Shown here: positions 22,416 to 23,082 of the stretch, one piece after another | Layout of the letters: each line of letters starts with the position of its first letter | Numbering within the stretch: position 1 is the first letter of the stretch | Source: Escherichia phage A6-6 | Direction: 5' to 3' (one strand) | Length of the DNA: 64,000 bases | Sequence record: PQ510734.1 | Program-made: the position numbers and the translations under genes | The notes under the pieces: model-generated | Seen by the model: only the letters and a program-made list of their open reading frames with translations | What the model was told of the DNA's origin: nothing | Database searches by the model: none

Positions 22416-22631
22416 ATGTTTAAGAAATTAATTCAGAAATTATTAGGTACGGAAATGGTTGAAGTTACTTATCGTGTTACTGACGTTTCTCCTCTCACAG
22501 AAGACCATTTAGAGCCATATATTATGACAATTAAAATGCTTAAATATGATGGCGGATTATCTATTGAAGACCGTTTACCGGGTTACGGTCATTGGGCTGA
22601 TGTTGAAATTATAAGTATTAAAGATGTCTGA
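22416..22631 (+). CDS. Hypothetical protein
   Basis: 71 aa. Confidence 0.5.
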   Translation: MFKKLIQKLLGTEMVEVTYRVTDVSPLTEDHLEPYIMTIKMLKYDGGLSIEDRLPGYGHWADVEIISIKDV

Positions 22632-23082
22632 GCTAGAGATAAGAAGCAATTTTAAATGGCCATCATGCGCATTAAGTAATTTCGCCCAATGGCCTTTTGT
22701 TATGGATGGTATCCAATTTGGAGGTCTCGAAGGATTCCTCCAAGGGTGTAAGGTGAAAAATGTTGAACAGCAACGTCGTATATTTGGGTTATCCGGGCTT
22801 GCCGCCCAACAAGCTGGAAGGTCTTATGCTAGAGCTCAGGACCGTGGGACCCTCTTCTGGCTTGGAGTTCCGTTTTCAAGATACTCCCCGGCGTGGAAAG
22901 AGCTATACACAAATGCATATTTTGAAGCAGCGTTCCAAAACAAGGGCTTTCGTGATGCATTACAAGCCTCGAAAGGAAAAGTTTTGAAGCACAGCATGGC
23001 TAGTGGTCTAACAAAAGATGATACAATACTAACCGAAGCTGAATTTATTGATGTGTTAAACCTATTAAGAGACTCTCTATGA
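22624..23082 (+). CDS. YbiA/NADAR-like (DUF1768) protein
   Basis: 152 aa; LSNFAQWPFVMDGIQF...LEGFLQGCK and AAQQAGRS resemble E. coli YbiA FSNFAAWP..DG....EHYFQAQK / AARMGR as recalled. Confidence 0.6.
   Translation: MSELEIRSNFKWPSCALSNFAQWPFVMDGIQFGGLEGFLQGCKVKNVEQQRRIFGLSGLAAQQAGRSYARAQDRGTLFWLGVPFSRYSPAWKELYTNAYFEAAFQNKGFRDALQASKGKVLKHSMASGLTKDDTILTEAEFIDVLNLLRDSL

What the first reader, a model, noticed from the sequence alone, without database searches (positions are those of the whole stretch)
22624..23082. YbiA/NADAR-like ORF: candidate reverser of ADP-ribosylation (anti-DarT-type counter-defence)
The 152-aa protein carries the NADAR/YbiA signature (SNFAxWP...DG...E.FLQ.K, AGRS). NADAR enzymes have been shown to remove ADP-ribose from guanine in DNA, which is the modification made by DarT-type defence toxins. 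An early-expressed phage copy is a plausible anti-defence factor. It sits next to a HAD-like hydrolase and just upstream of the two ADP-ribosyltransferases.
Basis: partly seen in the sequence, partly recalled or inferred. Interest (0 to 1): 0.5.

Follow-up and report, generated by a model that had tools for sequence, protein, structure and literature searches.

The report
T4 gene 30.3 (AdfN), known anti-DarT enzyme

Summary
The ORF is real: 22624..23082, + strand, 152 aa. The window is a Tequatrovirus (T4-like) genome. The ORF is gene 30.3, 149/152 residues identical to T4 gp30.3.

Pfam places it in PF08010 (Phage_30_3, E 1.3e-69), not directly in NADAR (PF08719). NADAR membership holds on other evidence:
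- 10 of 67 family members hit PF08719.
- The family profile matches E. coli YbiA (hhalign 93.6%, E 2e-7).

Glu36 and Lys43, the two residues tested by mutation in T4, are invariant. The third active-site position is the invariant His123 that marks phage NADARs.

The function is already published. T4 gp30.3 is AdfN, a DNA guanine ADP-ribosylglycohydrolase that is necessary and sufficient against DarTG1 (Nat Commun 2025;16:1598). In-vitro activity (Toxins 2024) and transposon sequencing (2025 preprint) agree. Unlike the inactive RB69 allele, this one is full length.

No functional link to either is shown.

Verdict: interpretation supported, already known, low interest.

The parts
22624..23082 (+). 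adfN / gene 30.3 coding sequence (152 aa plus stop): phage-type NADAR DNA ADP-ribosylglycohydrolase
22675..22695 (+). S18-N-F-A-Q-W-P24, the N-terminal NADAR signature. S18, N19 and F20 are invariant in the family.
   Evidence: Aligns with YbiA FSNFAAWP.
22729..22752 (+). E36-G-F-L-Q-G-C-K43 catalytic helix. Glu36 is codon GAA at 22729-22731 and Lys43 is codon AAG at 22750-22752.
   Evidence: E36 and K43 are invariant. They align with YbiA SEHYFQAQK. E36A and K43A abolish T4 AdfN function (PMC11825919 / preprint).
22990..22992 (+). His123 (CAC), in the last beta-strand. It is the phage-NADAR replacement of the Glu (YbiA family) or Asp (DarG1/BC4488 family) at the active site.
   Evidence: Invariant in 68 sequences. 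Strand E120-122 in the model. Described in PMC11125620, PMC11543638 and PMC12945103.
23035..23076 (+). C-terminal helix (residues 138-151, EAEFIDVLNLLRDS). It is intact here and lost in the inactive RB69 allele.
   Evidence: Helix H138-151 in the model. The RB69 frameshift is shown. The truncation correlates with DarTG1 sensitivity.
21653..21680 (+). Candidate sigma-70/T4-early-type promoter (TTTACT-16-TATTAT) upstream of gene 30.7. It is the likely start of the 30.7-30.6-30.4-30.3-30.2-30.1-30 transcription unit. Low confidence.
   Evidence: Consensus scan only. Promoter-like sites are not enriched over shuffles in this region (44 found against 43.4 expected). No late-promoter motif lies between 20469 and 25853.
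23079..23918 (+). Gene 30.2 (279 aa), translationally coupled downstream neighbour. It has an N-terminal HAD-fold phosphatase domain most like 5'(3')-deoxyribonucleotidases and a disordered C-terminal tail. This is context; it is not shown to act with AdfN.
   Evidence: AF2 pLDDT 83. 97 PDB hits at E<=1e-3; the 50 listed are HAD-fold proteins or engineered variants of them. D8, D10, K132, D150 and D151 are invariant. Weak profile hit to 2jao.

Best explanation
The ORF is the orthologue of bacteriophage T4 gene 30.3, published as adfN (anti-DarT factor NADAR).

It encodes a minimal, single-domain NADAR-fold N-glycosidase. The proposed course of events is as follows. When the phage infects a cell carrying the DarTG1 toxin-antitoxin defence, the DarT1 toxin ADP-ribosylates guanine bases in phage DNA and blocks replication. 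AdfN hydrolyses the guanine-ADP-ribose bond. It uses Glu36 and Lys43 on the catalytic helix, with His123 in the last strand replacing the acidic residue of cellular NADARs. This restores unmodified DNA and lets replication proceed. AdfN acts on the modification, not on the toxin. It does not counter thymine ADP-ribosylation by DarT2.

Shown here by computation: identity with T4 gp30.3, the NADAR fold, intact catalytic residues, and a full-length C-terminal helix.

Taken from published experiments on the 98%-identical T4 protein: enzymatic activity and the anti-DarTG1 phenotype.

Inferred: that this particular allele, which differs at three non-conserved positions, behaves the same, and that it is transcribed before late genes.
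For: Orthology:
- 149/152 residues identical to T4 gp30.3, with the same length.
- Same gene order as T4: rIII, 30.9-30.4, 30.3, 30.2, 30.1, ligase, alt.1, alt.
- Pfam PF08010 scores 232.8 bits against a cut-off of 36.

NADAR membership:
- PF08719 is hit by 10 of 67 family members.
- The family profile against the PDB finds only YbiA, 2b3w.
- hhalign against YbiA gives 93.6%, E 2e-7, with E36 and K43 aligned to the YbiA Glu and Lys.
- The AF2 model has pLDDT 91.3 and pTM 0.88.
- Foldseek's top three hits are 2b3w, 8bau and 8bat.
- E36, K43 and H123 are invariant in 68 homologues.

Experiments in the literature:
- Deleting adfN sensitises T4 and T2 to DarTG1 by about 4 logs.
- Ectopic AdfN rescues RB69.
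- E36A and K43A are inactive.
- Purified AdfN removes ADP-ribose from DarT1-modified DNA.
- AdfN has no effect on DarTG2.
(All from PMC11825919 / 10.1101/2024.07.11.602962.)
- T4 gp30.3 hydrolyses guanosine-ADPr but not thymidine-ADPr in vitro (PMC11125620).
- Transposon insertions in 30.3/adfN are lost on DarTG1 hosts.
Against: - Nothing was measured for this exact allele. It differs from T4 at K11R, F105I and M127I (window residue first), all at variable columns.
- The window protein alone does not reach Pfam NADAR at E<=1.
- The profile-to-YbiA sequence signal is moderate: E 0.0055 in the PDB search.
- Published data show that T4 AdfN does not rescue uninfected E. coli from DarT1 and only weakly rescues non-T-even phages. 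The simple picture of a free-standing glycohydrolase is therefore incomplete. An unidentified T-even factor or a preference for modified DNA is involved.
- Early expression is inferred from a consensus promoter match that is no better than chance at the regional level.
Confidence: 0.94

Rival explanations
1. The enzyme's main natural substrate is ADP-ribosylated RNA (for example tRNA guanosine) or a soluble ADP-ribose-derived immune signal. Anti-DarT1 activity on DNA would then be only one facet, or a side activity.
For: - Homologues of gp30.3 sit inside tRNA-gene clusters in three unrelated phages: Kosakonia 305, Aeromonas AhFM11 and Ralstonia RSP15.
- PMC12945103 states that representatives of all NADAR families also remove RNA G-ADPr.
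- Iyer et al. [quoted passage not shown]
- AdfN fails as an antitoxin in uninfected cells.
Against: - The genetic phenotype against DarTG1, a DNA-modifying toxin, is strong, about 4 logs. It depends on the catalytic residues, and DNA de-ADP-ribosylation was shown directly.
- tRNA clusters are common insertion sites for accessory genes, so that context is weak evidence.
- No RNA- or signal-based defence has been shown to be countered by AdfN.
Confidence: 0.04
2. It reverses or edits ADP-ribosylation made by the phage's own transferases (Alt paralogues, ModA, ModB), acting as a regulator of phage-driven host takeover.
For: - Two Alt-type ART genes lie about 2.8 kb downstream (PF03496, E 1.9e-37 and 4.3e-20).
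Against: - From background knowledge: Alt, ModA and ModB modify arginine in proteins. In the cited assays NADARs acted on base-linked (guanine or cytosine) ADP-ribose and not on thymidine-ADPr. Protein substrates were not among those reported.
- The alt genes carry their own late-promoter motif (TATAAATA at 25854), and none lies upstream of 30.3.
- In Acinetobacter phage Kimel alt is on the opposite strand.
- In several phages the 30.3 homologue is nowhere near alt.
- adfN is dispensable on E. coli K-12.
Confidence: 0.01
3. It is a housekeeping YbiA-type N-glycosidase acting on riboflavin-pathway intermediates, an auxiliary metabolic gene.
For: - YbiA is the only PDB sequence reached by the family profile and the best Foldseek hit.
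- Some database records label homologues 'YbiA'.
Against: - The residue that defines the YbiA family, Glu in the last strand, is an invariant His here.
- The YbiA C-terminal D-x-Y-W-G segment is not present.
- Published phylogeny places the phage cluster nearest the DarG1 NADARs.
- The gene is conditionally essential only on DarTG1 hosts.
Confidence: 0.01

Closest known systems
Bacteriophage T4 gp30.3 = AdfN (anti-DarT factor NADAR); Pfam PF08010 Phage_30_3
   Same: 98% identical and the same 152-aa length. Same neighbours and overlapping start and stop codons. Same catalytic Glu36, Lys43 and His123. Intact C-terminal helix.
   Different: Three substitutions at variable positions (K11R, F105I, M127I; window residue first). 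The surrounding locus lacks gene 30.5 and carries two full-length alt paralogues, where T4 keeps one alt plus remnants.
RB69 gp30.3 (naturally inactive AdfN allele)
   Same: 96% identical over the first 137 residues, in the same locus.
   Different: RB69 has a one-base insertion that truncates the last 15 residues, the terminal helix, and it is DarTG1-sensitive. The window allele is full length.
DarG1 / DarT1-associated NADAR antitoxins (BC4488 family; e.g. Geobacter lovleyi NADAR, PDB 8BAT)
   Different: No adjacent DarT toxin gene. No N-terminal extension. His instead of Asp at the last-strand catalytic position. The T4 protein cannot replace DarG1 as an antitoxin in uninfected cells.
E. coli YbiA (PDB 2B3W) and eukaryotic NADAR (Phytophthora nicotianae, PDB 8BAU); Pfam PF08719
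   Different: About 18-20% identity. Glu is replaced by His in the last strand. The region after that strand is shorter, with no D-x-Y-W-G motif. The biological role differs: YbiA is linked to riboflavin metabolism and swarming.

Membership tests
NADAR superfamily (Pfam PF08719 and relatives) | YbiA/NADAR alpha+beta fold (five core helices flanked by small beta-hairpins) | tested here: met
NADAR superfamily (Pfam PF08719 and relatives) | Detectable sequence-profile relationship to NADAR/YbiA | tested here: met
   The window protein alone has no PF08719 hit at E<=1. However, 10 of 67 family members hit PF08719, best E 1.5e-7. The family profile finds only YbiA in the PDB, E 0.0055. hhalign against YbiA gives 93.6%, E 2e-7.
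NADAR superfamily (Pfam PF08719 and relatives) | Catalytic Glu and Lys on the E-x-(F/Y)-x-Q-x-x-K helix | tested here: met
   E36 and K43 are present, invariant in 68 sequences, and aligned to the YbiA Glu and Lys.
NADAR superfamily (Pfam PF08719 and relatives) | Hydrolysis of guanine-linked ADP-ribose on nucleic acid | not testable with these tools
   Published for the 98%-identical T4 protein (PMC11125620; PMC11825919).
Phage NADAR / AdfN clade (Pfam PF08010 Phage_30_3) | Score above the Pfam gathering threshold for PF08010 | tested here: met
   232.8 bits against a cut-off of 36, covering profile positions 1-138 of 138.
Phage NADAR / AdfN clade (Pfam PF08010 Phage_30_3) | Histidine at the last-strand catalytic position | tested here: met
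   H123 is invariant. The feature is described.
Phage NADAR / AdfN clade (Pfam PF08010 Phage_30_3) | Full-length C-terminal helix (absent in the non-functional RB69 allele) | tested here: met
   Residues 138-152 are present and helical.
Phage NADAR / AdfN clade (Pfam PF08010 Phage_30_3) | Confers resistance to DarTG1 during infection | not testable with these tools
   Shown for T4 and T2. Not tested for this phage.
YbiA family (housekeeping N-glycosidase) | Conserved Glu in the last strand | tested here: not met
   The position is His123 in every family member. In the hhalign alignment with YbiA, the YbiA A-K-L-V pairs with K-V-L-K 119-122, so the next YbiA residue, Glu, corresponds to His123.
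DarG1 antitoxin (DarTG1 toxin-antitoxin system) | Encoded next to a DarT1 toxin gene; N-terminal extension before the NADAR core | tested here: not met
   The neighbours are 30.4 (PHROG of unknown function) and the HAD-fold 30.2. The nearby ARTs are Alt-type PF03496, not DarT. The protein is 152 aa, core only.

The most novel reading that the evidence does not exclude
The published work leaves one question open: T4 AdfN needs an unidentified T-even-specific factor for full activity. The most novel reading not excluded here is that this factor is the translationally coupled downstream gene 30.2. Gene 30.2 encodes a HAD-fold, 5'(3')-deoxyribonucleotidase-like phosphatase. The pair would then form a two-enzyme NADAR+HAD repair module.

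Support:
- The 30.3-30.2-ligase order is kept from Tequatrovirus to Acinetobacter Twarogvirinae and nearly kept in Klebsiella Slopekvirus.
- A different dNT-like HAD gene follows the NADAR gene in Vibrio phage QD01.

Against:
- Synteny is broken in Kosakonia, Aeromonas, Ralstonia and Rhizobium phages.
- The text of the transposon screen names only adfN as lost on DarTG1.
- The paper's own leading idea in the preprint was a preference for hydroxymethylated DNA.
Probability: 0.06. Interest if true: 0.45.

Novelty: already known. Interest (0 to 1): 0.1.

Why it matters
The gene matters biologically. It is the first lytic-phage example of an 'orphan antitoxin' enzyme that undoes a defence toxin's DNA modification. 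That has already been discovered, named AdfN, and confirmed by genetics, biochemistry and transposon sequencing in T4.

For this window, the practical value is annotation. The gene should be called adfN (anti-DarT factor NADAR), with the 152-aa start. The phage is predicted to be resistant to DarTG1 because its allele is full length and catalytically intact, unlike RB69's. Several public records still label it 'hypothetical protein' or start it at Met27.

Tried and rejected
- Single-sequence searches did not link the protein to NADAR. Pfam at E<=1 gave only PF08010, NCBIfam gave nothing, and phmmer against the PDB gave only a chance hit. Profile and structure methods were needed.
- The promoter scan was uninformative at the regional level: 44 sites against 43.4 expected. 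A MotA-box/middle-promoter pattern gave no site upstream of the 30.x genes apart from one before gene 31 at 20069, and the total was no more than chance.
- I tested whether 30.2 always accompanies 30.3. Both genes occur in about 1450-1500 phage records with similar host spectra, but adjacency fails in 4 of the 11 genomes inspected. A different HAD gene takes the adjacent place in a fifth, Vibrio phage QD01. I therefore do not claim a functional module.
- The HAD gene next to the Vibrio QD01 NADAR shares only the N-terminal DxD motif region with gp30.2 (hhalign 80%, 25 columns). It is not an orthologue.
- I considered the overlapping ORF 30.3' (22760-22987) as a possible second product. It is annotated in T4 but has an in-frame stop in RB69, so conservation does not support it.
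- I considered a link to the Alt transferases. I rejected it because of the separate late-promoter motif, the opposite strand in Kimel, and substrate chemistry: Alt's arginine-protein targets (background knowledge) against the base-linked ADP-ribose that NADARs removed in the cited assays.

Full report
**Observation.** The window holds an ATG-to-TGA ORF of 152 codons at 22624..23082 on the + strand. Its start overlaps the stop of the upstream ORF by eight bases (ATGTCTGA at 22624-22631). Its stop overlaps the start of the downstream ORF (ATGA at 23079-23082). It is therefore one link in a tightly packed, probably translationally coupled gene string.

**What the locus is.** Megablast of 22000-24300 finds 725 phage records. 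The best is Escherichia phage ime09 at 98% nucleotide identity, and nearly all are Tequatrovirus-type phages of Escherichia and Shigella. The gene order on the + strand is cd, 31.2, 31.1, 31, rIII, 30.9, 30.8, 30.7, 30.6, 30.4, the finding, 30.2, 30.1, DNA ligase (30), alt.1, then two Alt-like genes. This matches the ime09 and T4 annotations. The ORF is gene 30.3. The T4 reference gene (NC_000866, 128307-128765) has the same 459-nt length, and its product is 149/152 identical. An identical protein is encoded by phage SholemSchwarzbard. Pfam places the protein in PF08010 'Phage_30_3' (E 1.3e-69, 232.8 bits against a cut-off of 36), and PHROGs places it in phrog_652, of unknown function.

The window protein by itself does not hit PF08719 at E<=1, has no NCBIfam hit, and finds no NADAR in the PDB by phmmer. 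The relationship is nevertheless solid on four further lines of evidence:
- *Family members.* A search of 5.8 billion proteins returned 107 clusters, all PF08010. Several are labelled 'YbiA (DUF1768 family)' by JGI, and one carries both PF08010 and PF08719. When 67 full-length members were scanned individually, 10 hit Pfam NADAR, best E 1.5e-7.
- *Family profile.* A profile of 68 members finds exactly one PDB sequence, E. coli YbiA (2b3w), E 0.0055. The alignment pairs LSNFaph.F..DG with FSNFAAWPIKVDG and EGFLQsLK with EHYFQAQK. hhalign of the family against YbiA, taken from the K-12 genome, gives 93.6% probability and E 2e-7 over 91 columns.
- *Residues.* E36 and K43 are invariant across the 68-sequence alignment. 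So is H123 in the last strand. The literature describes this His as the hallmark of phage NADARs, replacing Glu in the YbiA family and Asp in DarT1-associated NADARs.

**What it does.** This is already published. Johannesman, Awasthi, Carlson and LeRoux (Nat Commun 2025;16:1598, PMC11825919; preprint 10.1101/2024.07.11.602962) mapped DarTG1 resistance of T-even phages to gene 30.3 by phage crosses and renamed it adfN. Their findings:
- Deleting adfN from T4 or T2 costs about four logs of plating on DarTG1 cells.
- Ectopic AdfN(T4) fully rescues RB69. RB69's own allele is truncated by a one-base insertion.
- E36A and K43A are inactive.
- Purified AdfN removes ADP-ribose from DarT1-modified DNA.
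- AdfN does not bind DarT1 and does not counter DarTG2.

An independent study showed that T4 gp30.3 hydrolyses guanosine-ADPr but not thymidine-ADPr in vitro, and cannot act as an antitoxin in uninfected cells (PMC11125620). A transposon-sequencing preprint found that insertions in 30.3/adfN are lost specifically on DarTG1 hosts. The bioinformatic recognition of phage NADARs goes back to de Souza and Aravind (2012), as cited by Schuller et al. 2023. Iyer et al. [quoted passage not shown]

**Status of this allele.** I confirmed the RB69 frameshift directly. After ...DDTILT the RB69 frame stops, and the +1 frame reads EAEFIDVLNLLRDSL. The window allele keeps that helix (residues 138-151, helical in the model). 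It differs from T4 only at positions 11, 105 and 127, all variable columns. I therefore predict a functional AdfN and a DarTG1-resistant phage. That step is inference.

**Context claims.**
- *'HAD-like hydrolase' next door.* Gene 30.2 (23079-23918, 279 aa) has no Pfam or NCBIfam hit. A 38-sequence alignment shows an invariant D8-x-D10, K132 and D150-D151. The profile weakly hits mouse 5'(3')-deoxyribonucleotidase. The AF2 model is confident for residues 1-200 and disordered after about 225. It gives 97 PDB hits at E<=1e-3, and the 50 listed are HAD-fold proteins or engineered variants of them. Coverage of the target is best for 5'(3')-deoxyribonucleotidase-type proteins (TM 0.61-0.71). The claim is supported.
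- *'Two ADP-ribosyltransferases' downstream.* The ORFs at 25882-27978 and 27982-30039 both match PF03496. The claim is supported.
- *Functional linkage to either.* This is not supported. The T4 late-promoter motif TATAAATA lies at 25854, just before the first alt gene, and none occurs between 20469 and 25853. In Acinetobacter phage Kimel alt is on the opposite strand.
- *'Early-expressed'.* This remains inferred. A T4-early-like site (TTTACT-16-TATTAT, 21653-21680) precedes gene 30.7, and no terminator-like site was called on the + strand between 22389 and the gene (the one at 22371-22388 is a weak 5-pair stem). The scan as a whole is at chance level.

**Wider distribution and synteny.** tblastn finds the gene in 1510 phage records. 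These include Klebsiella, Aeromonas, Acinetobacter, Vibrio, Rhizobium, Brevundimonas, Agrobacterium and Ralstonia phages at 31-44% identity. gp30.2 occurs in 1439 records with a similar host spectrum.

The order 30.3-30.2-ligase holds in T4, RB69, ime09, CLB_P2 and Acinetobacter Kimel, and nearly holds in Klebsiella phiKp_12 with two small ORFs between. It does not hold in Kosakonia 305, Aeromonas AhFM11, Ralstonia RSP15 or Rhizobium I1_9. In the first three of those the NADAR gene lies among tRNA genes. In Vibrio QD01 it is followed by a different dNT-like HAD gene.

These observations keep alive, at low probability, the idea that a HAD phosphatase cooperates with AdfN. The published paper explicitly leaves open an 'as-yet unknown T4 factor' needed for full activity.

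**Verdict.** The finding is the known gene adfN. It is an annotation-level result and not a discovery.

Noticed in passing
L008 4001-4462; L009 4001-4450; L012 3995-4513: In Kosakonia phage 305, Aeromonas phage AhFM11 and Ralstonia phage RSP15 (an Ackermannviridae), the gp30.3/AdfN homologue lies inside the phage's tRNA-gene cluster. That is 3 of the 11 genomes inspected. This could be chance placement of accessory genes, or a hint of an RNA-directed role.
   Followed up: no
window 23079-23918: Gene 30.2 is unannotated in most records and has no Pfam or NCBIfam hit. It is a HAD-fold phosphatase most like 5'(3')-deoxyribonucleotidases, with DxD at residues 8-10, K132 and DD at 150-151. Its variable C-terminal tail is modelled at low confidence from about residue 225. 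It is translationally coupled to adfN through an ATGA overlap.
   Followed up: yes
L010 4007-4961: In Vibrio phage QD01 the 30.3-family gene overlaps by 20 nt with a different HAD-family 5'(3')-deoxyribonucleotidase-like gene. This second gene shares only the motif-I region with gp30.2. It is a second, independent NADAR-HAD adjacency.
   Followed up: partly
window 25882-27978 and 27982-30039: There are two full-length Alt-type ADP-ribosyltransferase paralogues in tandem. The first is a mosaic of T4 Alt: the N-terminal ~245 and C-terminal ~90 residues are almost identical, but the central ART region is diverged (70% identity overall). The second is 42% identical to T4 Alt. T4 itself keeps only fragments of the second copy (alt.-1, alt.-2).
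   Followed up: partly
window 22760-22987: A 75-aa ORF lies in the +1 frame inside adfN and corresponds to the T4-annotated gene 30.3'. It is open in T4, ime09 and the Dhakavirus CLB_P2 but has an in-frame stop in RB69, so conservation does not clearly support a product.
   Followed up: partly
L001 7701-8081 (ime09 RefSeq annotation): Some public records annotate gp30.3 from the internal Met27 (126 aa). This removes the invariant S-N-F motif. Clusters of 126-aa versions also appear in the protein database (P0004-P0006). The 152-aa start, which overlaps the 30.4 stop, matches T4 and the published residue numbering (E36, K43).
   Followed up: yes
window 22092-22107: A GC-rich hairpin with a UUCG-type loop (AGGGGCTTCGGCCCCT) lies between genes 30.7 and 30.6. 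On the + strand it has no T-run, so it looks like an RNA-stabilising or processing hairpin, not a terminator. A strong terminator-like hairpin lies at 21210-21231, after gene 30.9.
   Followed up: no
window 22416-22631 vs L002 9759-10159: This phage lacks gene 30.5, which T4 has between 30.6 and 30.4. Its gp30.4 is only 50% identical to T4 gp30.4 although the flanking genes are 97-98% identical. This marks a local mosaic boundary immediately upstream of adfN.
   Followed up: no
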